From NCBI GenBank assembly GCA_010093605.1, contig MU004184.1, positions 1,436,801 to 1,500,800 of the forward strand: a stretch of 64,000 bases of DNA, in the 5' to 3' direction. How positions within the stretch are numbered: position 1 is the first letter of the stretch; every line of letters starts with the position of its first letter. The translations under genes were made by a program, and so were the position numbers. The notes beneath the pieces are model-generated. The model was given only the letters and a program-made list of their open reading frames with translations. It had not been told where the DNA came from and did not search any database. The stretch comes from Lophium mytilinum (lineage: Eukaryota). Positions 1,015 to 56,999 of this stretch are shown here, in pieces.

Positions 1015-3715
1015 ATGCCGTTAGTCGTTGCCCTTCCTAACCGTCCGCCTGCTTCTCGCGCTGCTTCTCGTCCTGCTTCACGTCCTGCTTTGAATCCCCG
1101 CCGGTCGCTTTCGCGCCGTCCCCCTGTTTCGCGCCGCGCTGCTTCTTCTTCGTCTGGTGCCAGCCCGCCGCCCACGACCACCGTCATCACCTCCACCATG
1201 GGCCAAGGCAATACTGACGTCTTGCTCTCTTTTAGGAGAAACATCACAGTCAACCACTCGACTGGCTCCGAGCAGAATTCCTATTCCGACGAGGAAGATT
1301 CCTCTGGCGTCCAGGTGTCGGCGCATTCTGGCAGCCACGACGAATACACCGACTCAGCCGAGGAGGAGGAAGAAGAAGAAGACTGGGACTACATAGAGGA
1401 CGAGATCGAGCCGTCCGACTCTGCGTCGCGCCCACGAGCACCGCCAAAGCAGCACCGCTCCGTCCCGCAACCCGCGCCTCGTCCCCCGCCTGCCCCCCGT
1501 GCCCGATCCCATCGCGCTCCCGCCCGAGACCCACCCGTCCGCCATAGGTCCGCCAGGTCCTCCAGGTCCTCGAGCAGACATCCCCGAGAGAAGGAGCCGA
1601 GGCAGCGACATAGGCGGCCCGAGTCCGTCCACTCTGACAGCCTGGACGGCCACGACGACTATCCGGGCTACGCCCGTGGCGGCCACCAACCTCACCCAAG
1701 CCAGCAATGGGCTCACGTACAGCAGCAGCAGCCGCCTCCCAGCGGCTATGCGCCCAGTTTAATGTCGGGTGCGGGTGGTCCTCCGTATAATCCCTTCACT
1801 AATGGAATGGCACCGCCTGGCAACTCGTTGGTTCCCTTCTCTCAGGGGGGCGATCCTTACGGCGGCTATGGTCCGAACCCGTTCGCATCGCCGCCTCCTC
1901 TTGCACCCAATGCAAACCCATTTGCTCCAGCTGGCGGCGTTGGCGCAAATGGTGGTTATTTCCCTCCTCCGGATGGACAGCGCCCAGGCAGGGGAGGACA
2001 CCGGAACTCGATGCCACCAATGCCTCCTGGGAATGAAATGATGCCATTTGGCGCCAATGGCTACTATCCCTACGGTGCTCCGCCTTACGGAATGCCTAAT
2101 GGGATGCCTCCTGGGATGCCTCCTGGGATGCAGGGGATGCCCGGGATGCAGGGAATGCCTGGGATGATGAATGGTATGCCAAATCCATACTTCTACCAGC
2201 AGCCACCCACCCACACGCCCACGCCACCTCCGAAACGATCCACACCAGGAGCCGAAGCTCCCCCTCCACCACCTCCCCCGCCTCCCCCTCCTCCTCCACC
2301 GCCGCCGCCTCCGCCTCCACCACCGGGTCCGCCAGAGCCCACCCCGGACGATCTCCGACTTAAGAAGATCGAAGCTATTCTTAGGGGCCAACTCGAGGAA
2401 GAAGACAAGAAGGCCGAGGACCAGCGGTTTAACAAGCTAGAACAGCTTCTTATTGCTCAGCATGAAGCTCGCGTGCAGAAAGATGCTGATAAGAAGCAGG
2501 CTGCCGCGGATGCTGCCGCAAAAGCTGCAGACGCGAAAAAGAAAGGGGATGAAGACAAATTGGCAAAACTGGAGAAACTCATCCTCGCTCAGAAGGATGA
2601 GCAACTGAAGAGGGAAGCGGCAGCTGATGCGGCACGCAAGGCGGAAAAGGCGGAGGCCGAATCAAAGGCAGCTAAGGATGCAGCCGACAAGAAGGCAGCT
2701 GCAGAAGCTGCAGCGAAGCTCCTAGACGCGGCGAAAAAGGCTCGTGAAGAAGCCGAAGCCAAAGCTGCGAAGGAAGCTGAGGAAACGAAGGCGGCGCACG
2801 ACAAGGCACTTGCTGAGGCAAAGGCAGCTGCAGAAGAGCTCGAGAAGGGCAAGAAAGCGGCGGAAGAAGCGGCGAAAGCAGCAGCAGACGCACTGGCGCC
2901 AAAGCCAGAAGCACCCAAGGCCCCGATCAAGTTTAAAGATGCTGTTGGCCGTAAATTCAGCTTCCCGTGGCATTTATGTAAAACTTGGAAGGTAAGTCTG
3001 AGACTCTAGCTGCAGACATCACACGCATCCGTTACTAATTTCGATTTTGCAGGGAATGGAAGAGCTGATCAAACAAGCATTCCTCCACGTGGATGTGATC
3101 GGCCCGCACGTTCACGATGGCCACTACGATCTTGTAGGCCCTGATGGCGAGATCATCCTTCCACAAGTCTGGGAGACTATGATCCAACCCGACTGGGCGA
3201 TTACTATGCACATGTGGCCAATGCCAGAGCCGCCGCCACCACCACCTCCACCGCCTCCCCCAGAGCCAGTACATCATGGGCACCACTTCGACCCGAATAT
3301 GATCATGCTTCCGCCGCCGCCGCCCGTCAAGAAACCCAAGAAGGGCACCAAGAATCCCCACAAGCAGCACCACGGCATGCCCGCTGGCATGGGAATGGCT
3401 CCTCCACCGCCACCTCCCCCGCCTCCCCCACCACCGCCCATGCCCATGGGAGGACCCGAAGTCGTCATCGTCAACGGGCCGCCTCCACCGCCTCCTCCTC
3501 CACCGATGATGCCAGGCCAAGACATGGTTGTTGTCAATCACCATCCGCGGCCGGCGAAAAAGAAACCGCCTTTAACACCATTCCTTAGATGGACGGCCGG
3601 CGGAGCGGGGCGCAGCCAGTCTTTAAAAGGGGTAAAAAAACCTGATGGCTCTAGTCCTACCGCTTCTACGCCTTCACCTCCCGCGAATGCGGAGGGTGGG
3701 TGCGTTGTTATGTGA
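1015..3715 (+). CDS. Proline-rich, coiled-coil protein with a fungal ubiquitin-like domain and C-terminal CAAX motif (family often auto-annotated as kinetoplast-associated-protein-like); 3 exons
   Basis: ATG 1015; intron 1020-1235 (GTTAGT...ACTGAC...TTTAG) gives MPRNITVN; intron 2992-3052 (GTAAGT...CTAAT...GCAG) joins KFKDAVGRKFSFPWHLCKTWK to GMEELIKQAFLHVDVIGPHVHDGHYDLVGPDGEIILPQVWE, a conserved fungal domain. Poly-Pro tracts, an A/E/K-rich coiled coil, ends GCVVM-stop. Confidence 0.8.
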
Positions 3716-5610
3716 TTGAACTGCCTGTTGACTATCTTGTCTAGGGCTACCCATATACGTATCAGTATCAAGAGAACTGGTGGCCGTAGCGGAGAGGAAT
3801 TAGATGCTAGGCGTACGAGATTGAGGAAAGAAGAGCAGTCGCTTATTGACGGGTGTGGGACAAGACAAGTTGGAGTCGCTGGGAGCCATCATCGTGCTCG
3901 GGCGGTGATCTCTTTCATATTTTGGAAACGCTTTCTTCGAATCGTCTCTTTTCCCCACACTTTGATCTGGTTTGGCGGCTGTTCTTCTTCCTTTCTTTGT
4001 GCCTTAGTCTTCTACTTCTTCTCCTTACGATCACTGTTCTGTGCGCATTTGGGTGCCTTTGGCACTATTGTTGATGGTTCTAAGTTCATCTTATAGCGAG
4101 CTGAAGCGGATGGATGAGTTGTCAGGGGGCATGGTTTTATCCCGCTTAGCGGGTCTTTCATGCTCCAGGGGAGGGGTCGTGGTTGTTGGATTCCTTTTAT
4201 TTTTGTGAGCGAGCGTAGCGGATGTTTCATGCTTGTGCTGTTTTCCGATTTGTCTAGCGTGCGTGCGTTTTCTGACGCAATGATTGAGATGCTGAGATGT
4301 TGAGATGAAGTTTTCGTTCCTACTATTCCTCAAGTCCGTTTCTATCTTCTTTTCTTCAGGCATCAATTTTTGGATCAGGCATGGATCAGCTGAACTTGCA
4401 GCTGGTCGCGAGCGAGTGGTTTCGTTGTTGGGGTTCCTAGGGGACGGTATCGGGGTTGCTGGGGATGGCGTAGGGATCTTTTTGGCACCGGGGTCCTCAA
4501 AAGTTCAGATACCCGGCGGAAGGGGGCGGGAAGCGTGATGATGAATGGGAGAATGATGATTGTGGATCCTTATATGCTTTTTTTCCTTTATTGGGATTAG
4601 GGTATTAGATATCAAGGCCAGGCGTCTGGGTTAATTCTGCTTTGTCTTCTTTGATGCGGTGATTGTGGTGTTGGAGAGGAAAGAGTGGTGAGTGAGAGGT
4701 GGATCTTTTTCTCGTCATTTTCTTTGGGCGCAGGCGGGATGACTAGTGATATCTAAACAAAAGTCGCCTCTTTAAAAGGGTTCGCTCTCCTCAAGTCGTC
4801 GAATCTGTCAAGTGACTGTGTCGTCAGGATTACCATTGCCAGACCTCTAGCTTTCGTTACACTGGTAGTATCGCCCTCTTACCTTGCCCACAGCGCCCTC
4901 AAAAAGAGCACATCTAGTTTGTTTCCGTGAGCCTATTGTTTCTAATAAGAAACGCCAGGTCACGTTTTTCCAGTTCTTCTTCATCTTGTCCGGCGGAACC
5001 TTTCAAGCAGGTTTCAGCTTTCCTAAAACCAATGTTCCATCGCCGCGTCACCACCCTCAAGCAAGTTGCAATAAACTCACCATCCAGGCTCTATGTTAGT
5101 GCTGATAAGGATTCTCGGTCATACTTTCGAAGGGAGGTCGATATGATTCGTTCGGCTGTACTGCTACGGCCTCTATATTCGCGGGCCGCCCCGTGAGCTT
5201 ATATCTGCCGTGGAAAAGGGGTCTTGTACAGGGGTCGGTGGAGTCGAGATAACTTTGCGGCGTTTGGTGGTGGTATGGTTTTTCTTCGAGCCTTTAGAGG
5301 AGTTTTTTTGGGCGTCATATTTGGCTAGAGTTGGCTGGAGTGATGGTTATTCGAAGTCTCTGATTGATCTTCCAGGGGCTTTGAAGAGTAGGGTGTTTAT
5401 TTCATTGGCAGATGTGATATATCGGAAGACCCAGACTGTGTGTTTCAAACATCCCATCTCCAAGAGTGCGTCCACTCACTTCCATCAAAACCGCAATTCA
5501 CCCAACTCCCGTGCATTCGTCAAGCCACTCGCACTTCCCAAAGAATTTACTAGCAGCTAAACTAAATCTACTTTGGGCTGACTTACAAGGCATATATTCA
5601 GTCTAATTCC

Positions 5611-5818
5611 GAGCACCACCAATTCAAAACCCAAGGGTGGACCAGTCAGGACCATAAAGTGCACGCTGCGGTGATCTCGACTTGGCCGACTGGTCCATTC
5701 CCACAACCTAGGGGCACTTCGGTGCCGCCCATATAGTGCACACTGCGGTGATCTCGACTTGGGGCCTGGGTTGTGGGATTCCCCGGTATGGGTTCGAATC
5801 GGGGTGGAGCTTTTTTTT
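5611..5818 (+). ncRNA. Candidate structured non-coding RNA (~200 nt, probably Pol III), family not recognised
   Basis: Stem 5638-5647/5688-5697 (perfect 10 bp); stem 5699-5712/5765-5778 (14 bp, one U-G); GGCAC-UUCG-GUGCC hairpin 5713-5726; 34-nt motif duplicated at 5652-5685 and 5729-5762; imperfect 5'/3' closing stem; A-box-like TGGACCAGTCAGG 5638-5650; B-box-like GGTTCGAATC 5791-5800; T8 at 5811-5818. Confidence 0.7.
5652..5762 (+). repeat. Two-copy 34-bp direct repeat CCATAWAGTGCACRCTGCGGTGATCTCGACTTGG (32/34 identical, period 77)
   Basis: Read directly at 5652-5685 and 5729-5762. Confidence 0.95.
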
Positions 5819-6954
5819 CTTTTTGCTCTGGGGCGCTGATAATAAGACATACTCTCTTTGTCACGTGGTAGTCCAGTGGTCTCCCTATGACCTTGGGCTC
5901 TTGCGAGTATAAAAGCATTCCTTGTTTCTCTTCTCTTGTCTGGTCATTGGAGGCAGAGGGTGTTCTGGGCTTTGTGTGACTTCAAATCGTCCTCGATCAC
6001 CATGTCATGTGGTGGTAGCTAGCTGGAGGATGTATCAAAAACTCGGGTCCGCCAGGCGTACTTGGAAGACTTTCAAAAATTGATACCTCCGCACACCTAT
6101 GGGGACGCTGAAAACGAAGAAGAATTATGATGACGACGAGCACTAACATTGGCTGAGAATTCGCAACATGTTAATAAGGTCATAGTACTAAGCAATGGGT
6201 CTTGATATCGTTCTCCAGGTCAAGATTGGCATGATGGTGAATAGCGTTTGTGGTTGTAGTTGGTCAGCATTAGGAGCTTCTCTTTAGAAGTCCTCGCAAC
6301 ATTGGTCTGGACGTTCTGTTTCTGTGATCTCCGAAATTCCGAACCCATGTAACGCTGATTCTCACAGTTTTGTTCCCTGAATCCCCGTTGAGACCTTGCA
6401 GAAGAGAAGAACCCGCCCGGGTCGGAAACTTTTATAGCTCGAGTCCCATACCCGTCTCGTGACATCGGGTTCATCACGTGATTATCAATCAAGCGCTGTT
6501 GTGAGCAAGGCTCTTTAGTGACGGGAATCTACGTGGCACATTTATTTGTACTCGTGACAGCACGCGGTGTCACTTCATTTACCCTCTGCAACTGTGCTCT
6601 TGGTAATCTGCCTGGAATGGGACATTCACGAGGTGTAGTTGCTGTTCGTCTAGAAACACGCAGCGTTGCTTTCTCTGCCCTCAACAGATTCATGAGACCC
6701 TAGCCAAAGAAGATTATCCACTCGGCGTAGCTTAGGGATCACTCTTGTCTCCATGCATCACGTCGGTTGATAATTAAAAGATGCGATGTCTGGATGAGGA
6801 TGTCCTTGTAGAGCCGTCATACATAGCACGCACATCTCCACAACTCAACGTCTATCGTAAACATCTGATTCCAGGGTATAATAACTCAAGTCCAGTCATC
6901 GCATCATGCATATAGCGATGCTCAACAGTCTCACTCCGAAACAACTAGCAACTC

Positions 6955-7792
6955 TCAAATCAGAAGACCCACCAAAACACCCAACCCCACAACCCACCAC
7001 ACCCTCTCCCCTCCCGCCACCCTCCCCGCATCCCCACAAACACCCCCCTGCGGACACTTCCCGCCCGTACTCTTCACCTGCTTCTGCACATTCTGCTTAA
7101 AGGCCCCGATCACGTTCCCCGGCGGGTAGTACTCGCACACCACAAACCAACCCGGCGCGGCCTTATCCCCCTTCTTCCCCGAGCAGTCCGTCCGCGAGCA
7201 GCCGACGGTAGTGGATGATTTCCAGACTAGCTGCGTGAAATGGCCCGTCTTCTCGGAGAACTGCCCCTTGCTGAAGTCGTAGTGGTCGCGCTCGTTGCCC
7301 CACGCCTCGATCGAGGCCGTCGCGTTGGGGTAGCCCGAGGCGAGGTTTTCGCCTGAGGGACCGCCCTGAACGGGTGTGAGTATTAAGGTAGACATGGAGC
7401 GTATTTTAAGGTGGAATGAGGATGAAATTGACGTACAAGCACGAAGAAATAACAAGAAAATGAAGTTGAGGGGGGAAGGAAAGAGCATATAGGATACTAT
7501 AACAGAGAAGCGAGCGACTCACCGAATGCTCAAACACACACGCACCACCCCATTTCCCCGCGAATGTTGCGAGAGAGTTGTTCCAAGTTAGGGCGCTCGC
7601 GTTGTGCTGCGCGCGGTACGTGTTCGTGCTGTTCAGGACTGCTTTTTTGAAATCATCCGCGTTGCTGTATTCAGTCGAGGTGCTGGAGGACGCCGAGGCG
7701 GTTACGGTGACGACAGAGGGTTTTGCAGGGGTGGCGGCGGCGAGCGTGATGCCGAAGAGAGAAACTGGGAGGAGGAAGAACGAGGAGCGCAT
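6955..7792 (-). CDS. Secreted CAP/SCP/PR-1 (PRY-like) protein with probable GPI-anchor signal; 2 exons
   Basis: Signal peptide MRSSFFLLPVSLFGITLAAA; CAP motifs NTYRAQHNASALTWN, GENLA, GHFTQLVWK, VVCEYYPPGNV; intron 7522-7366 (GTGAGT...CAG); hydrophobic C-terminus VWWVVGLGVLVGLLI. Confidence 0.92.
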
Positions 7793-8099
7793 GTTGGGAA
7801 AGACAAGACTATGGTACAGAGAGAGGCAGTTGCTGTTGATCAATTGAGAAAGGTTGTGAGTGAGGCTGTACTGGAGCGGATCATGAGGGAGCTGCAAGTC
7901 AGTAGACATTCGACTTGTGACTCGAGCTATCGTATTTGTTTGACAGCGGCGTCTTTCTCACACGCCATAGGCCGTGGATGGCACGGTTGATCAAGGATCG
8001 TGGCCTTGTTTTGGAGTCTTTGTTCTTGACTGCAATCACTGGCGACAAGCAGTCAAGGGCGGCTAAGTGACGTAGTGCTGGTCATATTTGGCTAGCCTC

Positions 8100-13591: not shown

Positions 13592-16500
13592 TCAACCCGG
13601 CTTCGGCTTCTTCGTGCGGTCGATCTTGATGAAGGGATCGACCTCCCTTTTACGCTTCGGGGGGATCAGTCGCTGTCGAGGAGGTGGAGCTGGGTTCGGC
13701 TGCCCGCCTGTCGCTTGCTGTCGTCCACTGTCGTCCCCGGCCTTAGTCAGGGCACTCCGCGGCGCAGGGACAGCAGGGCCAGCCTCCTTCTTCGGGCCGT
13801 TGCGGGCGCCACCCGGATGCGGCGCTGGCGTGGACCGTCTACTTCCTTTGCTCGACGCGTTGCCGTCCGCTGACGAGATGTCCTTCATGTATACATCTTC
13901 GTCGTCGCTAAAGTCCAGCTTCATTGCCACGTCCTTTTTAACCGCCGACGCTTTCAACCCAAGACCGGTATCTGACGACGGCCGCCGAGAGACGCTGTGC
14001 TCCTGCCCGTACGAGGGATACCCGGCCGCTCGCGTCTCCTGCTTCACCTGTCCCGCGTAACTGGCATTGCGAGAGGGGCCGGTGGGTGCGTTCAATGGCG
14101 CACTTGGCTGCCCATATGCGCCTGCGTTCGTCCCGCTATTTTTGGCTGGGAACGACGAAGAGGGCTTTTGCAGCATCGCCGTGAGGTTACCTTGAGTGTA
14201 TCTATCCCTGGCCCGCGCATCATTCAACAGCTTGTTCCAGAACTCGCCACGGCTCAGATTCTGTGCATTGCCAAGCACCCAGAGTGACGACTTCGCACGG
14301 GTCAGGCCGACGTTCATACGTCGGATGTCTTGCAAGAATCCTACGCTGCCTTTGGGTGAGGCTCTGACGCAGGAGAAGATGATAATCTCGCTCTCTCGAC
14401 CTTGGTACGCGTCCGTAGTATTGAACTCAATCGTATCAAAAATGCCTTCTCCATATTTCCGACCAAAGCGATTCTTGAGTTCGCGCAACTGGCTCTTGTA
14501 TGGCGTGATGATACCGATTTTGCCCGCGAAATCGTAGTCTTTGAAGTCTTTGGTTAGTCGATCGAATAGCTGCATAGCTACCTCAATCTCTGCAATGTTG
14601 AAGATAGAATGGCCTGACGATGCAGATTGATGCTGGCCTTGGACGTCGAAGAATCGATAGGGCGCGAGCAAGCTGCTGCTGTGCCACGGGCGCTGTCGGA
14701 GGCCAGCCATGTCGTCGCCGTCTAGCAGTCTCCCATCGTAGAAGGTCTGGCTCGGAAACAAGCTGATCTCAGGATGCATACGATATTGAGTGTCGAGTAG
14801 ATGAACATCGTCCTGATGGTTGCCTTGCATACGGACGAACAAGCTCTGCTCATACTGATAACGCTTGGCTTCGGCAGAGAAGACGGTGGGAGGGAGCTGC
14901 TTTGGATCTCCGACCAGAATACACTTCGCACAGCCGTATTTGAGGGGGATGAGCGCACTCATCTCGACACACTGAGCTGCTTCATCAACAACAACAGTTT
15001 CGAACTCGATGTTGAGATTTTGGAACATGTCATGACCACTACCGCTAAGTGTGGCGCAAATGATGTGAGCGTCGTCCAGAATCTGTTGCTGGGCGCGACG
15101 TCGATTGAGTTCCTTTTCACGGGACTCAAGCTTCTCTTTGTCCTTTGTGTTGTCGATCTGCGTGCCGAGCTGTGTTTTGCGCCGCCGGAGGGCATTGAAG
15201 TCGTCCTTAAGCTTGACAGCATCATCTCCCTTGGCCAAACCGGCATCCAGTTGTTCACGAACTTGGCGTAACTGTTCCGAAATGGCTTGGTGTTCCTGGA
15301 AAAGCTTTTGCGTCTTCTCCCGGTCATTTGTTCCGTTGGATGAATTCAGATTGAGCTTCTTGTTCACGAGTGCCTCAAGCGTCACGTCGACAACATTGGT
15401 ATTGATGGCATCGCTACGACCCAACCTCACGATGTTGACCTTGCGTGTCTGGCCACCAAGAGTTTTGATGCCATCCTTGAAACGCATTACCAACTCGTCA
15501 ACGGCCGCATTACTAGGGGCGCAGACCATCAATTTCTTGGATGTTGTCTCTGGCGCCCTCTGACCATAGGCGCCGCTGACTTTCGGAAGAGGAATGGTAG
15601 TGCCTTGCTGTCGAAGACTTTCGGTCAGAATTGCTCCGACGATGGCAACAATTGTCTTGGTTTTCCCGGAGCCTGGAGGACCTTGAATCAGAGTGAAGGC
15701 ATCGTTGTCGATAGCAGACTTGATAGCCTTTGCCTGCGCCTTGTTGACATTGTAATTCGTGATGAGTGGCTCTAGTGTTTTGTCGCTGTACTTGAGTAGT
15801 GGCGAAGGCTTCGCTTTGATGATCTCGTCGCAAAGGTCGTAGTATTCCAGGCCCAGCAGGGCGCCATACTCACGTTCGAGAGGAGTAATCGATTGCAACT
15901 TAGCTCCAAATACCGTGCCTTTCGGTACTAAAGCATTTTGTAGCGAGTTTCCTGGCATGACGCGATACATAACCTCTAGATGGTCTTTCTTCCTTGTAAT
16001 CCGGAAGACCCTGGCGAGACAATGAGGGTCCTTGGCAGATTCGGCCATGTCTTGACTTCCCGTAGACACTCTCGATCTGTGCAATAGGACAATGTCACCC
16101 TCGCCAAGATTGAGATCTTTGTTGTCCATATGGGTCATCGTGCTGCTGACCTCCTGGAACATGTCGACGCTAGAACGTGCCACGACTTTGATTTCATACA
16201 TCTTGATATTGTTCTCCTCGCGTGTCTTGACAAACCCTTGCCATGCTTCCAGGGTGAGAAGAGGCTCGAATGTTCGTTGATAATCTACGGGAGTGCGGAA
16301 TGAGTTCGGTACTTCAGAGTACATGTCTGGCCTAGATTTGGGCGGGTAATGTCCCTCGTGATAGTAGTCCCAAGCTAGTATGACCTTGTGCAAAGGCGAT
16401 AGATCTGGGGCAAGCCGGGCTCGCATATCCTTGATTGATCGAACAACCCTCCTCTTCTTCACTGGCCCTTGCGGCATAGGAGCAGTCGTAATATTGGTCT

Positions 16501-19500
16501 TGGTAACAGTCCCTGAAGCTTTCTTCTTCTTATCAGCGAGCCCAAAAAGCTCAGCATCCAGAGAATCGTCACTATCACTCTCATCTGAAGATACCATCAT
16601 ACCCTCTCCCTTAGCAGCATGGTCTTTGCCTAACACGCCAATGCCGTCTAGCCCGGACCCCGCTTCGGCCGTGTGGTCTGAAAAACCTCTGATGTTCTTC
16701 TTAGCCTGTGCTACAGCAAGCGCATCCCTCTTCTTCTTTGCCTCTTTTTCGGCTTCTCGCTTTCGCTTAAACTCAGATTGCTCTGCAGCTTTGTCCGCCG
16801 CTTTCTTCTCAGCGGCCTTCAGAGTGGCAGCAGTTTTTGAAGCTTGCCGGGCTTTGAATGCTTCGGCACCGCGAGTGCTATTAGCGATCAGTCTGTCATG
16901 CTCCTCGGTGATAGACCGCGGCCTGGACTCCGGTTTGGTGAGACCAGTGGTAAGCCAGCTGCTTAGTTGCGCTTGTTTTTGGACGGCTATGGTCTCTTCA
17001 ATCTTTTTAGTTGAACGCCCTGTGTACGTTTCAAAAGCTTGCTCCAGCTCCGCCTTGCTGATATCGCTTAATTTCGCTCTGGTAGACCCGTCGAGCACGC
17101 TCTCCACGTAGAGCACAGCTGGATCATCTACCTCGATAGAGACTTTCTTCAATCGAGTGAGTAGTTTGCTGATGAGAGATACCGAAATTGTGCTGAGCCA
17201 GTCATCACGTAGCCGCAGCCACTTGGCAATTGATTTGACTGATTTAGCGGGATGCTCCAGCAGTTCCTTTTCTGGGTTAAATCGGTCGGTGTCGTCTTTG
17301 GAAGAAGACTTGGCGGATCTAAGTGCAGAAGCGAATATACTACATTGACCGAACAACTGGTCGGCGAATTGCATCGTGTCCCGGCAGAATTCCTTCATTT
17401 CCTCCTTGTTGTATCCCATATTACTCCAATCTTCCGTGGTCCTGAAGATGATTGCCACGGCCGACCACATATTCTCCCAGAGCGTCGTGGTTATTCTAGC
17501 TTCCGGCTCCGATAGTCTGCGGCTGCGGAGAATGCCATCTTGATCGTTGCAGAGAACCTCGATGATGTCTCGGCATGCCTTCAACATGCTAGACGCTGGA
17601 GCAAATACCCTTTTTCGAAAGATACGGCGAAGAGATGTGGCAAAGGTGGTAATGGAATTAGTGTAGAAGGCTAGAAGCAAATGTTTGATGGCGTCTCTCC
17701 TTTCATCCATGGAGCTTACGATTTTGAGAAGCTCCAGGGTTGCTTCACGTGTGTCAGGTTGCGAAGAGAAAATTGTAGGAATCACGGCCGACGCAGAAAC
17801 TGGATTCTCGAAGAGGCCGTCCAACTTCTCAGGGTCAAATTCGCTGAGTCGCTCGACAGCTGCAGTAATGGTTTCTGAGGCATCATCGAAGCGATTGTTG
17901 AAATGTCGTAAGGGCGAAGGAAGCATTTGGGCCCCTCCTTCTTTTTGCCTCCTGAAGAATTTCTCCAGTCCGACCAGTGATTTTCCACCGATTAACAGCC
18001 GGACGGCCAAGTCCATGTTCTCGACGTCGATGGCTTTGATGATGGACTTCCATATCGGCGTTGCTTTGCTTGGTCCGGTAGGTGCCGGTTGTTTATTTAT
18101 GATGGCTTCTCTTTCATTCTCCAGAGAGATACATTCTAAATTGAACGCATGTTGGATCACCGAGAGGCCCAAATTGACTTCGCTTAATGGTGCCTTAATG
18201 CCGTCCACCTGCTTGATGCCTAACACTATCTTGTCGATGTGGGTCGCTAACATCTCAAAGATGTCAGCGACAGTTGCTTGACCGACGAAAGGCACATTGG
18301 GATTGCAAAGTTTCCTCAAGGTGTAGTCAAGAACCTCGAGTCCGAGTTTGAAGCAGGATGCCCGGCATGCCCAAGAGAATTTGTCCCCCTGAAGACGACC
18401 GAAGAATTGGTGGGCTAAGGCCCGGCAGACTGGTGCAATATTCGAAGGCTTGATGGAATCGAGGAGTGGCATTACCCACGAGAAGGATTCTTCGAGCTCT
18501 TCAAGGCCACTCATGTCATCACCCGTGAATCCCATCAATATTCTGCGTAGTGATGGACTCCCGAATATCTGCTCCACAACCACGACTTCCGAGATGGCAC
18601 CCATTGCGTCCCAAAAGTCTGCAGGAGACTTCTGTAGCAAGAGCTCAATTGTGTGCTGCAGATCGTTGAAGTGCGAAGAGTCCAGGGATAGATGGTCCAA
18701 ACAGAGTGTGTAGAATTTATACTCAAGAGCACGTAGTCCATGCGTGATGAGATCTTTATCCAGTCTCGCTATGATGAATCTCGCGCCGGTCCAAAATGCT
18801 GGGACAAGATCCATTTCCAGTGCAGTCATCTGCACGCGTCCCATTGCGTCTTGCAGATACCTACTGACCGCCCAGTCAAACTCAGTCCTCGTGAGCACTC
18901 TCTTCAGCTTCGTCCAAGAAAACAAGGCCCAGTCTTGGCGAACAGTGTTTGAGGTGAACAGGAACTTTGTCATAGCCGGAACATATGTGTTGAGTCTGAC
19001 GCGTCTCTTCATTTGTACCAGCTCGAAGGGTTCGTCGAAATGTCTCTTTAGGAGTCCGTCATTTTCCAGCATAGCAGCGCAGCTCAAAGTCTCGAAGAAG
19101 GCATATATGCCTTTGTTAGTCAAGACATCGATGCCGCGTTTATCTGGTTCCACATGTAACAGACTGGATTTCGCGGCCTCGAGGCCTTGCACTATTCGCC
19201 GAATGCTGATCTCATCGAGCTTCTCTAGGAAGGTCTCAACATCGTCATCTTCGAACCGTTCTGCAAGCCTGAACTTGAGCTCGCCCCGTGATTTGTGGAA
19301 AACGCGGACGCAAACATCACAGTTGGTCAACTGATTGCTCAATCGCTTCTTTATCTCTTCGTGGTATGGCTCAGCATCTGGGCCATTGAAGGCCAATATT
19401 TGAAGTGCATCCAGGACAAGCCACTTCCGCTCTTCGGCTTTCTTGATTTTCGCAATTCGGCGCGCCTTCTCCGCTTCATCGACCTTCTGTTTGCTCCCAA

Positions 19501-19669
19501 TAATGTCCTCCTCGTAGTATACGCCTGCTTCGTCTCGGGCGGTTCGGGGACAAAATAGGTGCAGGTCTGCAGGAAACCGTTTGATCTGCCTGTTGTCAAT
19601 CAGAATGAGACTACAGTAACACTGGTCCTAAATCGTGACTTACTCTATCTTTTGGATGATTTCCGCCAT
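13592..19669 (-). CDS. SEN1: Sen1/senataxin SF1 RNA/DNA helicase; 2 exons
   Basis: Walker A LIQGPPGSGKT, CAPSNAAVDE, VVVDEAAQ, LVGDPKQLPPT, QYRMH, RRMNVGLTRAK; long N-terminal SEN1_N-like region. Exon 1 19669-19644 (MAEIIQKIE) plus intron 19643-19590 continue in frame through HLFCPR into the 1934-aa ORF. Confidence 0.96.
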
Positions 19670-20978: not shown

Positions 20979-23900
20979 TTATTTCAGGTTCTCGGGTTCC
21001 TCGTCCTTTGAGACAGTCGGTCTTCTTGAGCTCAGTGCATGCCGTAATCGACTAAGTTGTCCAGTACGCTGGCCCGTCTGACTCTGACTAGATTCGATAC
21101 GAGTTAGCAATGCAGCAGAAGTAAACTCATTACTTTGCTCAAAGCTAGGTCTGACCCTGTCCATGGATACGCGTGCCCGGTCGAAGGACGGCCGTGGGCG
21201 ATCCAATGATATCCTGTTGGGGATGGTATCCAAAGAGCGCCTATAAGTGTAGTCGGTGCTGTTGCTCCCATTCTGACTCCTCGGATTGTGTGTCGTAGAG
21301 GTCGGAGCTACGGACGGAGGGTATATGGGTCGCATATCATCCTCCACAACAGGCACGTCGGGAGTCTTCTTGTTCAGCTTGGAAACATCTGACGATGACA
21401 TAGAAGCGACTTTTTCCGGAGGTGGCGGTATGAAGTCATCGTTCTCTTTGAGGTAATCGAATTTTCCTTGGCGAACCTGCTCGCGAATGATGTCCACGTC
21501 ATAGGGAAAGAAGATCTTTTGAGTAGCCTTGACCACAAAGCGGGGCAGGAGACAAATGACCACCGCCAGAAGGAGGACAGCCCAGAAAGAAAGCGATCCA
21601 TAGACTTGGGGCGCGGCTTTGTAGAATGCAGCACTTCCAGTGCCGGACGTCCACACTCCAGTCCAGAACCATACTAGAAGACAACTGATTGCGACAATGA
21701 GAAGCATTAGCCAGTCCCACCGGTAGGTGTTGAAAAGGATGTAAAAGTTGGCGGAAATGACGGCAATCGTGGCGACGTAGATACCCATTCGCTTTGTGTC
21801 ATCAATTCCCAGTCCGTTTGATGAGTTGAAAGTCGCAGGGGAGAAGAGCAGATACACCATGAAGAAGGTGACGATTGACTGGTAAACTCCGTCCGCCATA
21901 TACATCCTGGGTTCATGTTAGCATTAGCATACCTACGTGATCGGGAACAAGACAATCATACCAGAATTTAGGTTGCGTCCACTCCTTTCGCTCAATACCT
22001 CTGCGGTACAGCTGTGGGACGGCAAGCGAGACTTTGTCGTCGACATCCTGGTCCAATACGCCCATCAAGATGACGGGAAGGGAAGTGAAAGCAAGATTGA
22101 AGAGGATGATGTATGTGTAGTCGAAAATGTACGAGCAATCGTAGTTCTCGTAAATTTGATACCAGAACAGCGAAAATGTCCATACCAAGTTCTACGAAGT
22201 GTAAGCAATCCATATGTAAGAGCATCTGCTGAAAGATTCTTACCTTGTAGAAGAAATTGGCAATAGTCTCTGCCAGTCTGCGATAAGACCAACGCCCATG
22301 CACAAGACAAAGCCGCGTGAGGAAGCGGAATTGTCCAATGGCATAATCGGAAGACATCACAGCTTGTCTTCCCTCTTCACCAGCAATACCAACACCAACA
22401 TGCGCTTCCTGGATCATGGCAACGTCGTTCGCGCCGTCCCCGATTGCAAGTGTAAGACAGTCCAGTCCAGATTTGACCATATGAACAACGGCGGCTTTTT
22501 GGCTGGGACTGACTCTGCAACAAAGCACTGAGCGACACTGTTTGCAGAGCAGCAGAAACTTCTGCTTGATAGAATCGTTCAACACGAGTTTTAATGAATC
22601 ACCGTCAATGATGATGGCATGAGTCGGCGCCGGAGGTTCGTGATTATCTTGTGCAGCCTTGAGTTCTTCATCCGATCCTGTCATGTTGAAGGTCGCAAGA
22701 TGTTTGTCTAGCTCGGCTTCCGCAGTCGCCAGACTCTCGTCTTCGATTTTGAAAACAATCAGGTCCATATCGTTGTCGAGGAGATTGCAAGAAAAGCCAA
22801 TATTGATCGCGGTCTCAACCTTGTCACCGGTGAGGACCCAGAGCTTAATTCCTGCTCTACCGAGCAAGGATATAGCATCGGGAACGCCATCCTGCAACCT
22901 ATCCTCAATGGCTGTACCGCCAAGAAGCAACAGTTCTCGTTCGATCGAGTCGGCGACCTCTTCGAGCTTCTCTTCGCGGTTAGTAACAGCCCCAGCAGCT
23001 ATGTCATGCCTTTGGTTCCATTCCTGGTATTCTTCCTCGTCGAGTTCTCGCTCAGCAATGCAAAGCGTTCGTAGACCTTCACGGGCAAACATCTCGAGAT
23101 GCTCAGCAGTGCTTCGCCTGAGTTCTGGCTGCACGCCTTTCTTCAATCTCGAATATATTATGCTGTCCGCTCCTTTGCAGAACAACATAAGCTTGCCGTT
23201 GGGCATCCTGATGATAGCACTCATACGTTTCCGCGTCGAGTTGAATTCCAGAGTGTTCAAAACCGTATAAGACGTTTCCTTGCCCATTACATTGAGATTG
23301 ATGGAATCACCACTTCGGCCGAGGACTGTGAAACCCACATCACGAGCTGTAGCTACCAGCGCAGCCTCGTCGGGGGATTGAGCTTTGAATTCGATCCTTG
23401 GAGGGTCGCCAGGGGTTCTTTCGGTGATTACCGTATGACACAGAGCCAAAACCAACATGAATCTCTCGTTCGCTTGTCGTTGCTCTTCGCCCGACTCTCC
23501 AGCCAGGTCAGCAATGTAATCGGGAGCAACAAAGGTAAGGTCCTCGTCTCGCAGATAAGGATTGTTGTGCATTTTGCGAATTGACTCAATCATTCGAACG
23601 CGGTCGCGAGCAATTTGTTCGTGAGCACGAGCGCCTTCTTCTTCGACGTTAATTCCTTGTCGTCGTTGCATACCAGCTTGGGCTTCCGTGTAGGCTTCTC
23701 CGTATGGAACGCCGTTTACCGAGGCTTTCTTGAACTCCATGACGTTTTGCGTCAAAGTACCAGTCTTGTCCGAGAAAATGTACTCAATCTGGCCAACATC
23801 ATCGGAAATGTTCCAGGACTTCGGAGTGCATGGGTAATCAATTTTTTCGTAGTACATGTGGACGTCGCTGTAGATAAAGACAGCTTGTAACGTACGGATG

Positions 23901-25705
23901 ATCTCGAGGGTGATGTAGAGCGAGATAGGGACCAAATTCTGGAAGAGGATGACGCCGGCCCAGAATGTGATAAATCCGTCTAAAGGCGGGCTACCGCCGT
24001 AAGAGCCGTACTCAAATAGAGCGTGGCTCGTGTCGTCTTTGGCCCAGAAAACTCCTTGTACGATGCCAGACACCAAGCACATGAAGAACAAGATGATGAA
24101 GTTGTACACAACGTTCCAATTCAGGTCTTTGGAAATCTTAGCGCGCTTGCTGGGAGTGATGCCTGAATTGATCATGATTTTGGTTTCGTCTCCAGTGAAG
24201 ACGACGACACCTAGAGCCCATTCTGTGTTTCGCAGGTTGCAACCACGGAGAAGCAAGTTGTTGATGGTTATAGGTTCAGCCATATCCGTGGTAGGTAGAT
24301 CGGGGTCCTTGGGATCGCGTTGGGCCCATCTCACGACTCCGCTGTAAGAGTAAAGATTTGCATGCGGGCCTTCGCTTTCAATCACAAACGAAGACTTCTC
24401 GCAATGACGCGCGTGCCTCACGTTTTCGGAGCAATGCAGCGCCTGTCGGACCTTTAGATTAGTTTCGCCGTCCAGATTCTTCGTTTCAACGTAGCAAGCC
24501 CCATCAGCTTCCGAGGTGGAAAGAACCACGACGTCGGCTGGGATTTCCTCATCGTTGTACAGGCGAACAAAGTCTCCAACTTGAACATTCTTCCAATAGT
24601 CCTTCTTGAACCTAGCTTTGTCTGGGGTAGTCTTGAAAGGATCTATGATGTTGCCGTAGAATCTCTTGGCCGGTGCGGCGGGGTCCTGCTGGGCGGGCTG
24701 GCCCTTCGATCCAGGTCGAATTCCTTCGAAAGTGACAGTCGTCTGAGGATGGCCCTCAATGTCCAGCGCGTCAGGAGGCGGCCCTTGGCCTGGAATCGGG
24801 GAAGGGACTGGAGTCATCTGGATGCCTTCCTGGCTCCCTACGGAAAGGAAGGACTCTCTTCGAGACATGACGGAGGCTCTTCTTGTCTCGATTGAGGGCC
24901 TCGACTCATCCATGGACCTCTCTTGCCAGCTTTTGCCTTTCTCCCCTTTGGTCTTTTTCTTGCTCATCAGTTTCCAAGTTGAGATAATGAGCCTTGTAGT
25001 AGCCTTCTTGAATCGTCGCCACAAGGAGATCTGGTTCTCTGCTGTATTGACATTGTTAAACTCCACTAATCTGTGGACTGGAGCATTATTGAGTTCGTTA
25101 TCAAGAACCGTTCGTCGCCAATCTTCAACAGCATCCTTAACTGCAGTTATGGTTATGATTACGATCAGTGGAACGGCGTTTAGCGCTGGATTCGAGGCAC
25201 CAAAAATTTGAAAAATCTATACAGCGATTAGCCACCAAGACGTACAAAGGAGCGATATAGCGCGTACCCCGAGAATAATGATGAAGAGAAAGTACACGTT
25301 TGCGATGTTATGGAATTGGAACCACAGGTTCTTGGGCACGAAGCTTATGGCGGTGTACTTTGCGGTTCGTATCTTATTTCGAGAATAGGTGGCCTTGGGA
25401 TGCCCGTCCTCGTCCCGCTCCTCCGCGGGGAGCGGGATATTAAAGAACACCCTCCTACTGGTGTCCTGCTCATCGCTTCCGGTTTCTGAGCCACTCTCGG
25501 GGACATCGCTTTCCTTTCCCGTGGTGTTCGTAGTGCCCGAAGACTCCCGCTTTTTCTCAGTCGAGGTTGTTCGGTTGTGGAGACGTTGTATGAGCGAGGC
25601 CCGTTTCTTGTCTCCTTTGGTGCCCCCTGCTCTGTGCGTCGCCCATCGTATCCTTTTCACGGGATTCGAAACTTCGTTGTCCTCCTGATTCGGGTCGAAG
25701 GCCAT
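20979..25705 (-). CDS. DNF1: P4-type ATPase phospholipid flippase, Dnf1/Dnf2 subfamily; 4 exons
   Basis: NKIRTAKYT, KNLDGETNLK, PISLY, phosphorylation motif IFSDKTGTLT, LTGDKVETA, GDGANDVAMIQ; introns near 25267-25217, 22243-22193 and 21961-21907. Confidence 0.95.
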
Positions 25706-56606: not shown

Positions 56607-56999
56607 GGTGGGTAGTGATGGGATTGAGTGGTGAAGCTTTGACAATTTTGAAGAGGTACTTTAAGTTTCGCGCGAAATTCGCGCTAGTCATTAAGGTCAC
56701 GTGCTTTGCATTGATCGCATTCGATATTTCGCAGTAGTCTTCATACAGATGAGGTGAGATGAAGCGATTTATACTAAGTATGAGATCCAGCAGTCGGATT
56801 CATACTATCACAGATCATAAACATTTGCAAACCCGGAGAAAGCCGAAGCACCTCAGTCAGTGTCAATTCGGGTAAATCCAGTTCACTCTAGCAATGCAAT
56901 TGAGATCTTGTGAGCGAATGGTTTGCTATTTAATAATTATACAATCGCCCAAGATGTGATTCTTTCGTCAGCGTTCCAGGGTGAAAATGATATGGGGCT

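What the first reader, a model, noticed from the sequence alone, without database searches (positions are those of the whole stretch)
5611..5818. Unannotated ~200-nt Y-shaped structured RNA with two arms displaying the same 34-nt motif, plus Pol III signals
Seen in sequence: in an intergenic gap, arm A (TGGACCAGTC 5638-5647 / GACTGGTCCA 5688-5697) and arm B (TCCCACAACCTAGG 5699-5712 / CCTGGGTTGTGGGA 5765-5778) have unrelated stem sequences, yet each carries a near-identical motif. The motif itself folds as CCA-[UAW bulge]-AGU-G-CAC-[RCUGCG]-GUG-[AUCUCG]-ACU-UGG, and both differences between copies fall in unpaired positions. Arm B has an extra GGCAC-UUCG-GUGCC hairpin forming a three-way junction. 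The ends can close (GAGCACCACC 5611-5620 with GGTGGAGCTT 5803-5812; ATTC..AACCCA with TGGGTT.GAAT) directly before T8. The cUUCGg loop and G-U pairs point to a + strand RNA. Established: A box, B box and oligo-T are the type 2 Pol III gene layout, and cUUCGg marks functional RNAs. Inference: a stand-alone bivalent RNA (protein decoy/scaffold, tandem aptamer or dual guide). I cannot match it to tRNA, 5S, U1-U6, SRP, RNase P/MRP, snoRNA or the common small ribozymes.
Basis: partly seen in the sequence, partly recalled or inferred. Interest (0 to 1): 0.88.

Follow-up and report, generated by a model that had tools for sequence, protein, structure and literature searches.

The report
Candidate fungal Pol III Y-shaped RNA
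A single-copy, very stably folded ~200-base element in a Dothideomycete fungus looks like an undescribed small RNA gene read by RNA polymerase III that holds out the same 34-base sequence on two arms, but whether it is transcribed or conserved could not be tested here.

Summary
The sequence observation holds. Both arms carry a 34-nt stretch identical at 32 positions. The only GGTTCGANTC (B box) and the only T8 run in the whole 64 kb, both strands, lie 10 nt apart at its 3' end on the + strand. No Rfam family matches, even at E<=10. It is not a tRNA. The source assembly's contigs show no second copy at >=80% likeness.

The A box is no better than chance. The proposed inner fold of the motif is no better than shuffles (z +0.4 and +0.5). 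The host is a Dothideomycete near Mytilinidion, not Aspergillus.

Best reading (about 0.45): a stand-alone Pol III gene, probably derived from a tRNA gene, for a bivalent scaffold or decoy RNA.

Expression and conservation could not be tested. No fungal genomes are held, and the pattern scans gave only chance hits. It remains a good but unproven candidate.

The parts
5593..5598 (+). TATA-like TATATT, 13-18 nt upstream of the first base of the closing helix. A possible TFIIIB/TBP site; weak and inferred.
   Evidence: Read. Its spacing to 5611 is shorter than the roughly -30 recalled for fission-yeast Pol III genes.
5611..5637 (+). 5' strand of the closing stack: GAGC, CCACC, AUUC, AACCCA, GGG.
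   Evidence: MFE and pair probabilities 0.70-0.98.
5638..5697 (+). Arm A: a 10-bp perfect stem plus GG/CC, capped by motif copy 1.
   Evidence: I3, 100% complementary.: -28.5 kcal/mol, z -4.19, 0 of 200 shuffles as good.
5652..5685 (+). Motif copy 1 (34 nt).
   Evidence: 60.0 bits against the model built from the two copies.
5699..5778 (+). Arm B: a 14-bp stem with one G-U that closes a three-way junction.
   Evidence: I1.: -42.6 kcal/mol, z -3.94, 0 of 200 shuffles as good.
5713..5726 (+). GGCAC-UUCG-GUGCC hairpin (cUUCGg tetraloop).
   Evidence: Pair probability 1.00. It is the only cUUCGg hairpin with a stem of 4 bp or more on the + strand of the window; one other lies on the - strand.
5729..5762 (+). 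Motif copy 2 (34 nt); differs from copy 1 at 2 positions.
   Evidence: 59.9 bits.
5779..5812 (+). 3' strand of the closing stack. It can alternatively form CCCCG 5781-5785 / CGGGG 5800-5804 around a 14-nt loop that holds the B box, a T-arm-like hairpin.
   Evidence: for the MFE fold. The alternative hairpin was read from the sequence and not scored.
5791..5800 (+). B box GGTTCGAATC (TFIIIC site). It lies 10 nt before the T run, as in a tRNA gene.
   Evidence: The only match to GGTTCGANTC in 64 kb on either strand; 0.59 expected in the whole window.
5811..5818 (+). T8, the presumed Pol III terminator. Its first two T pair with G5611 and A5612.
   Evidence: The only T8 in 64 kb on either strand; 1.82 expected. 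Only 8 runs of T6 or longer exist on the two strands together.

Best explanation
This is a single-copy, stand-alone gene for a small RNA of about 200 nt, made by RNA polymerase III in a Dothideomycete fungus.

Inferred chain of events: TFIIIC binds the B box at 5791-5800. TFIIIB sits upstream, perhaps on TATATT at 5593-5598. Transcription starts near 5611 and ends in the T8 at 5811-5818, leaving a short U tail that La would bind.

Shown in silico only: the RNA folds into a Y. A closing stack of short helices joins its two ends. The 3' side of that stack (B box, then about 10 nt, then the T run) has the layout of the T-loop and acceptor end of a tRNA gene, so the gene probably arose from one. 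Two long, stable arms with unrelated stem sequences each hold out the same 34-nt sequence at their tip.

Inferred function: the RNA is a bivalent platform. The two identical, weakly paired tips are recognition sites for two copies, or a dimer, of one sequence-specific partner, most likely a protein. The RNA would then scaffold or titrate that partner, as 7SK, Y or vault-type Pol III RNAs do in other eukaryotes.
For: (1) Fold: z -5.0 for the whole element and -4.2 and -3.9 for the arms, with 0 of 200 shuffles as good in each case.
(2) Pol III signals: the only B-box match and the only T8 in 128 kb of strand sequence lie 10 nt apart, on the same strand, at the 3' end of the fold. From the window-wide expectations of 0.59 and 1.82, each placement has a chance of order 1e-3 or less (my arithmetic). 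There is no TTTT inside 5611-5810, which is weak evidence because 62-64% of 200-nt windows also lack one.
(3) Strand: the cUUCGg hairpin and 2 G-U pairs fit the + strand only. The + strand MFE is 5 kcal/mol better.
(4) Constraint: the repeat unit (period 77) is 32/34 identical in the motif and 10/13 in a head segment. The stem segments between them are at chance identity yet perfectly self-complementary. That pattern is expected if the tips are selected for sequence and the stems only for pairing.
(5) Single copy: only the main contigs of X1 and X2 were laid on 3000-8000 at >=80% likeness.
(6) No protein explanation: the ORFs that overlap the element match no Pfam family.
Against: No transcript was seen, no RNA run holds the stretch, and no homologue was found, so there is no covariation (details under Tried and rejected). 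The A box is at chance level. The TATA-like hexamer is closer to 5611 than the roughly -30 I recall for fission-yeast Pol III genes, so the true 5' end may lie further in. The - strand folds nearly as well. The inner structure of the motif is not supported. Both motif copies could be kept alike by recent duplication or gene conversion rather than by selection. The partner and the function are pure inference.
Confidence: 0.45

Rival explanations
1. A relic of a tRNA gene, or a low-copy tRNA-related SINE-like retroposon. It keeps a B box and a terminator and may still bind TFIIIC (an ETC-like site) or give a Pol III transcript, but the RNA has no function of its own.
For: The 3' end has tRNA-gene spacing: B box, about 10 nt, then the T run. 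Passages of PMC5063351 describe Aspergillus fumigatus tRNA-related SINE-like elements of 140-493 bp with degenerate A and B boxes upstream of an oligo-T tract. Southern blots there show some of them as single copies, and none folds as a cloverleaf.
Against: In those elements the tRNA-related part and both boxes lie at the 5' end. Here the B box is at the 3' end, and the body consists of two long, perfectly paired arms with a duplicated tip, which decay would not keep. No cloverleaf is found at ARAGORN default or 80% thresholds in 7 of 7 constructs. No target-site duplication is evident at 5611 and 5818 in the sequence (by eye only). No second copy was found.
Confidence: 0.2
2. A structured segment of a Pol II transcript: a lncRNA, a long 3' UTR, or the upstream region of the TATAAAAG promoter at 5908-5915. 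The B box and T8 would then be coincidental.
For: Low-depth RNA contigs of X3 cover 4798-5569, so some Pol II-type transcription runs up to 42 nt before the element. A consensus TATA box lies about 95 nt downstream.
Against: The unique B box and the unique T8 of the window coincide at the 3' edge of the fold, on one strand. There is no ATG ORF longer than 30 aa on the + strand between 5887 and 6780.
Confidence: 0.12
3. A DNA-level element: a remnant of a foldback or MITE-type transposon, or two direct-repeat binding sites for a DNA-binding protein flanked by palindromes.
For: There are nested inverted repeats and a 61-nt direct repeat. The - strand folds as well as the + strand. The motif contains the palindromes GTGCAC, GATC and TCGA.
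Against: It is single copy. The G-U pairs and the cUUCGg loop make sense only as + strand RNA. I saw no terminal inverted repeat plus target-site duplication signature at the borders (by eye). A transcription-factor site needs no flanking stems.
Confidence: 0.1
4. A Pol III-made guide or antisense RNA. The two identical tips would act by base-pairing with a target RNA, or with each other through the self-complementary GUGCAC, rather than by binding a protein.
For: The tips are weakly paired on their own (z +0.4 and +0.5), so about 28-34 nt may be accessible. The sequence, not the structure, is what is conserved between the copies.
Against: No complementary site was found in the 64-kb window; the both-strand search found only the two + strand copies. 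No known guide class fits. The U3 box consensuses RTGATGA, AGYGA and CTGA given in PMC5832005 are matched only as near-misses: GTGATCT, AGTGC, CTGC.
Confidence: 0.1

Closest known systems
tRNA genes (type 2 Pol III promoter)
   Same: B box GGTTCGAATC. About 10 nt lie between it and the T run, as between the T loop and the end of a tRNA. The 5' and 3' ends pair like an acceptor stem.
   Different: There is no cloverleaf. ARAGORN finds none in the window or in 7 of 7 constructs at default and 80% thresholds; at 70% with introns allowed it draws only broken T stems. The Rfam tRNA model gives nothing at E<=10. The A box is not above chance. The body is replaced by two arms of 60 and 80 nt.
Pol III scaffold or decoy RNAs of other eukaryotes: vault RNA, Y RNA, 7SK (features recalled, not tested)
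   Same: Presumed Pol III transcript with a U tail, 5' and 3' ends closed into a stem, internal protein-binding modules, and, in vault RNA, a B box close to the 3' end.
   Different: There is no Rfam match to any of them at E<=10. It is about twice the length of Y or vault RNAs. The review PMC4726728 (passage) states that no Y RNA or sbRNA candidates had been identified in fungi. I recall that the partner proteins (Ro60, MVP, HEXIM) are absent from fungi; this was not tested here.
AfuSINE2 tRNA-related SINE-like elements of Aspergillus fumigatus (PMC5063351, passages)
   Same: Short, low- or single-copy fungal elements with Pol III boxes and an oligo-T tract that do not fold as cloverleaves.
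   Different: Their boxes lie in the 5' part, and target-site duplications are described. This element has its B box at the 3' end, an extreme fold (z -5) and an internal duplicated tip. Sequences could not be compared because none are in the text I saw.
U3 snoRNA B/C motif (box consensuses from PMC5832005, passages)
   Same: Each tip holds AGUGC (box B core AGYGA) and GUGAUCU (box C RTGATGA) a few nucleotides apart.
   Different: Every box is a near-miss, and the adenine of the box B consensus is replaced. There is no A', A, C' or D box, and no Rfam U3, Fungi_U3 or Plant_U3 match.

Membership tests
Type 2 Pol III gene | B box GGTTCGANTCC | tested here: met
   GGTTCGAATC at 5791-5800 (+). It is the only match in 64 kb on either strand; the 11th base is G rather than C.
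Type 2 Pol III gene | A box TRGCNNAGTGG about 10-20 nt after the start | tested here: not met
   Matches at up to 2 mismatches are at chance level: 317 against 297 expected. The best in-element + strand match, 5683-5693, lies 72 nt from 5611.
Type 2 Pol III gene | Oligo-T terminator and no internal T4 | tested here: met
   T8 at 5811-5818 is the only T8 in the window. There is no TTTT in 5611-5810.
Type 2 Pol III gene | Pol III or TFIIIC occupancy; a transcript with 5'-ppp and a 3' U tail | not testable with these tools
   No RNA holder was listed. The contigs of the one RNA-type run do not cover the element.
tRNA | Cloverleaf with T stem, D arm and anticodon arm | tested here: not met
   ARAGORN finds 0 genes in the window. 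It finds 0 in 7 of 7 constructs at default and 80% thresholds. The T-stem positions beside the B box do not pair. No Rfam tRNA match at E<=10.
Any Rfam 15 family (SRP, RNase P/MRP, U snRNAs, U3, Y RNA, vault, 7SK, 5S, Afu_* families, ribozymes) | Covariance-model score | tested here: not met
   0 of 4227 families reach the gathering score in the window. At E<=10 there are 0 matches on 5605-5822 and 0 on 5695-5782. On 5400-6000 there is one junk mir-8196 match that lies outside the element.
SINE / MITE (dispersed repeat) | Multiple copies in the genome | tested here: not met
   At >=80% likeness only the main contigs of X1 (3 records) and X2 (2 records) were laid on 3000-8000. There is no third motif copy in the window. 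Copies below 80% identity cannot be excluded.
SINE / MITE (dispersed repeat) | Target-site duplications at the borders | tested here: inconclusive
   I saw none by eye at 5611 and 5818. The only nearby direct repeat is ACTTTGGGCT 5570-5579 / ACCTTGGGCT 5890-5899, 90% identical and 30-70 nt away from the borders.
U3 snoRNA / box C/D K-turn | Boxes RTGATGA, CTGA and AGYGA (PMC5832005) | tested here: not met
   Only near-misses are present: GTGATCT, CTGC and AGTGC. No Rfam match.
Conserved structured ncRNA (any) | Homologues with compensatory base changes | not testable with these tools
   No fungal genome collection is held. The pattern scans gave only chance hits.

The most novel reading that the evidence does not exclude
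This is the founding member of an undescribed class of fungal Pol III RNAs. A tRNA-gene-derived, Y-shaped, roughly 200-nt scaffold presents two copies of a 34-nt recognition module and titrates or assembles a dimeric partner. It would be a fungal functional counterpart of 7SK, Y or vault-type RNAs, in a kingdom where the known Pol III repertoire is essentially tRNA, 5S, U6, 7SL, RNase P RNA and a few yeast oddities.
Probability: 0.3. Interest if true: 0.75.

Novelty: new variant of a known kind. Interest (0 to 1): 0.6.

Why it matters
To my knowledge (recalled), the Pol III transcriptome of filamentous fungi is taken to be small and fully catalogued, and no Y-, vault- or 7SK-like regulatory Pol III RNA is known there. 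A reviewed passage says Y RNA and sbRNA candidates have not been identified in fungi (PMC4726728). A stable bivalent Pol III RNA would add a new player and an easily testable one: it is single copy, about 200 nt, and has a defined 34-nt module for pull-downs. It would also be a clear example of a tRNA gene rebuilt into a scaffold RNA. If instead it is a decayed tRNA-derived element, the finding is minor.

Tried and rejected
EXPRESSION. No RNA holder was listed for 5580-5840. The one RNA-type run, X3, shows spliced neighbour genes in its contigs but has no contig over 5570-7012. Its library type is not on record and short non-polyadenylated RNAs are easily lost, so this says nothing either way.

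HOMOLOGUES.
- No whole genome is held for the window.
- Metagenome scan with a 21-nt motif pattern: 1 locus, L001. It is GC-rich, has a single copy and lacks the flanking CCA...UGG frame, so I read it as chance.
- Genome-contig scan with a looser 25-nt pattern: 2 loci in bacterial records, each a single copy without the frame, so chance.
- Viral-contig scan: 0.
- Earlier notes of this scan: no look-alike stretch by sequence or place. The word searches found nothing relevant.
- A covariance model built from the two tips found no third copy in the window. The next best of 17 hits scored 11.8 bits at E 0.96.

LITERATURE.
- Four motif strings searched in full text: 0 papers.
- Topic searches turned up no description of such an RNA.
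- Li & Breaker's 15 fungal motifs (PMC5640933: outline, passages, sections 12 and 14): none fits by description. I did not open their Stockholm supplements.
- The A. fumigatus ncRNA catalogue (PMC2377427: passages and section 16): its sequences are not in the text, so identity with Afu-202, Afu-262 or the like could not be excluded by sequence. Those entries that are in Rfam did not match.

IDEAS DROPPED.
- tRNA with a giant intron.
- Ire1/HAC1-type twin hairpins: the heptamer CUGCGGU fits the loop consensus I recall, but it has no closing stem.
- K-turn or U3 B/C motif: near-misses only.
- H/ACA snoRNA: no H or ACA box and no pseudouridylation pockets.
- miRNA-like hairpins: the conserved part is the tip, not a 21-nt duplex.
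- Coding region: no Pfam match for the overlapping ORFs.
- Similarity of the tip to the 3' end of SSU rRNA, 7SK SL1 or the HIV DIS: recalled short-word resemblances only, not pursued.

Full report
WHAT IS THERE. A closing stack of five short helices joins the two ends. Their mean pair probabilities are 0.70-0.98. The stack opens into a junction that carries arm A (5638-5697) and arm B (5699-5778). Arm A has a 10-bp perfect stem plus GG/CC. Arm B has a 14-bp stem with one G-U, and it closes a second junction that holds a GGCAC-UUCG-GUGCC hairpin. The MFE is -95.5 kcal/mol against -73.3 +/- 4.5 for 200 dinucleotide shuffles (z -5.0, none as good). The arms alone give z -4.19 and -3.94.

Each arm is capped by the same 34 nt (5652-5685 and 5729-5762), with 32 of 34 positions identical. 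A 28-nt core occurs twice in the window at up to 3 mismatches, against 0.00 expected. A covariance model built from the two tips finds no third copy in 64 kb.

WHAT DOES NOT HOLD.
- Inner fold of the motif. On its own the 34-mer folds no better than its shuffles (z +0.40 and +0.53; 124 and 132 of 200 shuffles fold as well). Both copies are identical at every candidate pair, so the statement that both differences fall in unpaired positions carries little weight. The tips are best described as conserved sequence held out on strong stems.
- A box. Matches to TRGCNNAGTGG at up to 2 mismatches are at chance level in the window (317 against 297 expected). The best + strand match inside the element lies 72 nt from the presumed start.
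- Host. The window's POP1 is 82% identical to that of Mytilinidion resinicola and 59% to that of Lepidopterella palustris. The host is therefore a Dothideomycete, not an Aspergillus.

POL III SIGNALS. GGTTCGANTC occurs once in the 64 kb, counting both strands, at 5791-5800 (+). That compares with 0.59 expected for the whole window. T8 also occurs once, at 5811-5818 (+), with 1.82 expected. Only 8 runs of T6 or longer exist on the two strands together. The two unique sites lie 10 nt apart, on the same strand, at the 3' edge of the most stable fold in the region, which is far from chance. By my arithmetic from those expectations, each placement has odds of about 1e-3 or less.

The spacing (B box, about 10 nt, T run) is that of the T loop, acceptor strand and terminator of a tRNA gene (established tRNA numbering). 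The 10 nt pair with the 5' end like an acceptor stem. The body contains no TTTT, but 62-64% of 200-nt windows lack one too. A TATA-like TATATT lies at 5593-5598. That is closer to 5611 than the roughly -30 I recall for fission-yeast Pol III genes, so the 5' end is uncertain.

STRAND. The - strand folds nearly as well (-90.3, z -5.04), so the energy does not choose the strand. The + strand is favoured by four things: the cUUCGg tetraloop, which is one of only two such hairpins with 4 bp or more in 128 kb of strand sequence; two G-U pairs that would be A-C mismatches on the other strand; the B box; and T8.

WHAT IT IS NOT.
- Known RNA family: none of 4227 Rfam families matches at the gathering score in the whole window. 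None matches at E<=10 on the element or on arm B. On 5400-6000 the only match is a junk mir-8196 hit outside the element.
- tRNA: ARAGORN finds none in the window. It finds none in the element with or without its arms at default or 80% thresholds (7 of 7 constructs negative). At 70% with introns allowed, 3 of 7 constructs give drawings with broken T stems.
- Protein-coding: the ORFs that overlap the element match no Pfam family.
- Young dispersed repeat: when 3000-8000 was laid against the 45-Mb contig sets X1 and X2 at >=80% likeness, only the main contigs matched. X1 and X2 are probably the source of the assembly.

INTERNAL ANATOMY. The direct repeat is longer than the motif. Positions 5625-5685 and 5702-5762 are 75% identical with period 77. 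A 13-nt head (CAAAACCCAAGGG / CACAACCTAGGGG) is shared at 10 of 13 positions and the motif at 32 of 34. The 14 nt between them and the 16 nt after the motif are at chance identity (my count), yet they form perfect but different helices.

So the element looks like a duplicated unit in which tip and head were kept, while the stems were replaced entirely with pairing preserved. That is the pattern expected for an RNA whose tips are read by sequence and whose stems only need to pair. Recent duplication or gene conversion confined to the tips cannot be excluded from one genome.

MECHANISM PROPOSED, WITH ODDS. My estimates: an RNA-level structured element on the + strand, about 0.85; a Pol III gene, about 0.55; a bivalent scaffold or decoy for a sequence-specific partner, about 0.35. 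The combined reading as stated is about 0.45.

Shown by computation only: the fold, the uniqueness and placement of the B box and T8, single copy at >=80% likeness, and the absence of a family match. Inferred: TFIIIC and TFIIIB recruitment, start near 5611, termination in T8, a U tail bound by La, origin from a tRNA gene, and two identical tips binding two copies or a dimer of one protein.

Rivals are a tRNA-derived relic or low-copy SINE-like element (0.2; compare AfuSINE2 in PMC5063351, passages), part of a Pol II transcript (0.12), a DNA-level foldback or binding-site element (0.1), and a base-pairing guide (0.1).

WHAT COULD NOT BE DONE. No fungal genome collection is held. The single metagenome scan returned one chance hit. 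The prokaryote and viral scans returned two chance hits and none. No RNA run holds the stretch. The one RNA-type contig set has nothing over 5570-7012, which is uninformative for a short non-polyadenylated RNA. Conservation, covariation and expression are therefore all open.

Literature searches and the papers read in part (PMC5640933, PMC2377427, PMC5063351, PMC4726728, PMC5832005) describe nothing like it. Their supplements were not opened and could hold matching sequences.

VERDICT. This is a real and unusual sequence feature and a credible candidate for a new fungal Pol III RNA. It is unproven, and it rests on one locus in one genome. Interest 0.6.

Noticed in passing
window 5637-5666: In DNA run X1, a 53-nt contig (depth 55.7, against about 150-170 for its neighbours) follows the window to 5666 and then continues into 23 foreign letters that contain a loxP-like word. 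The main X1 contigs break at this point; X2, from the same sample, does not. I read it as an adaptor or chimera artefact of a Cre-lox mate-pair library, from recall. Not verified.
   Followed up: no
window 5621-5625, 5697-5702, 5778-5783: An AUUC(C) word precedes the head of each repeat unit and follows each arm. This suggests an 77-81-nt unit present two and a bit times.
   Followed up: partly
window 5862-5915: Just downstream of the T run lie CACGTG (5862-5867), an A-box-like TAGTCCAGTGG (5869-5879, 1 mismatch) and a consensus TATAAAAG (5908-5915). No tRNA is found there, and no + strand ATG ORF longer than 30 aa follows before 6780.
   Followed up: partly
window 4798-5569: Two low-depth contigs (4.4 and 2.9) of the RNA-type run X3 cover this otherwise empty intergenic stretch and stop 42 nt before the element. 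The upstream gene's contig (depth 697) ends at 4777.
   Followed up: no
window 7364-7522 (-): The X3 contig skips 157 nt with CT..AC ends, which is GT..AG on the - strand. This confirms an intron in the CAP-domain gene and shows that X3 is spliced RNA of this organism.
   Followed up: yes
window 13592-19627 (-), 53823-56660 (-), 21992-25216 (-): These are ordinary nuclear genes: Sen1 helicase, the RNase P/MRP subunit POP1 and a P4-type ATPase. There is no tRNA gene anywhere in the 64 kb.
   Followed up: no
window 2252-2257 (-): This is the only other cUUCGg hairpin with a stem of 4 bp or more in the window. It lies on the - strand, inside the proline-rich gene region.
   Followed up: no
window 3398-3429: A 32-nt word recurs about 700 nt away within the same contigs of X1, X2 and X3 (the 'goes back' joints). 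It is an internal repeat of the proline-rich gene.
   Followed up: no
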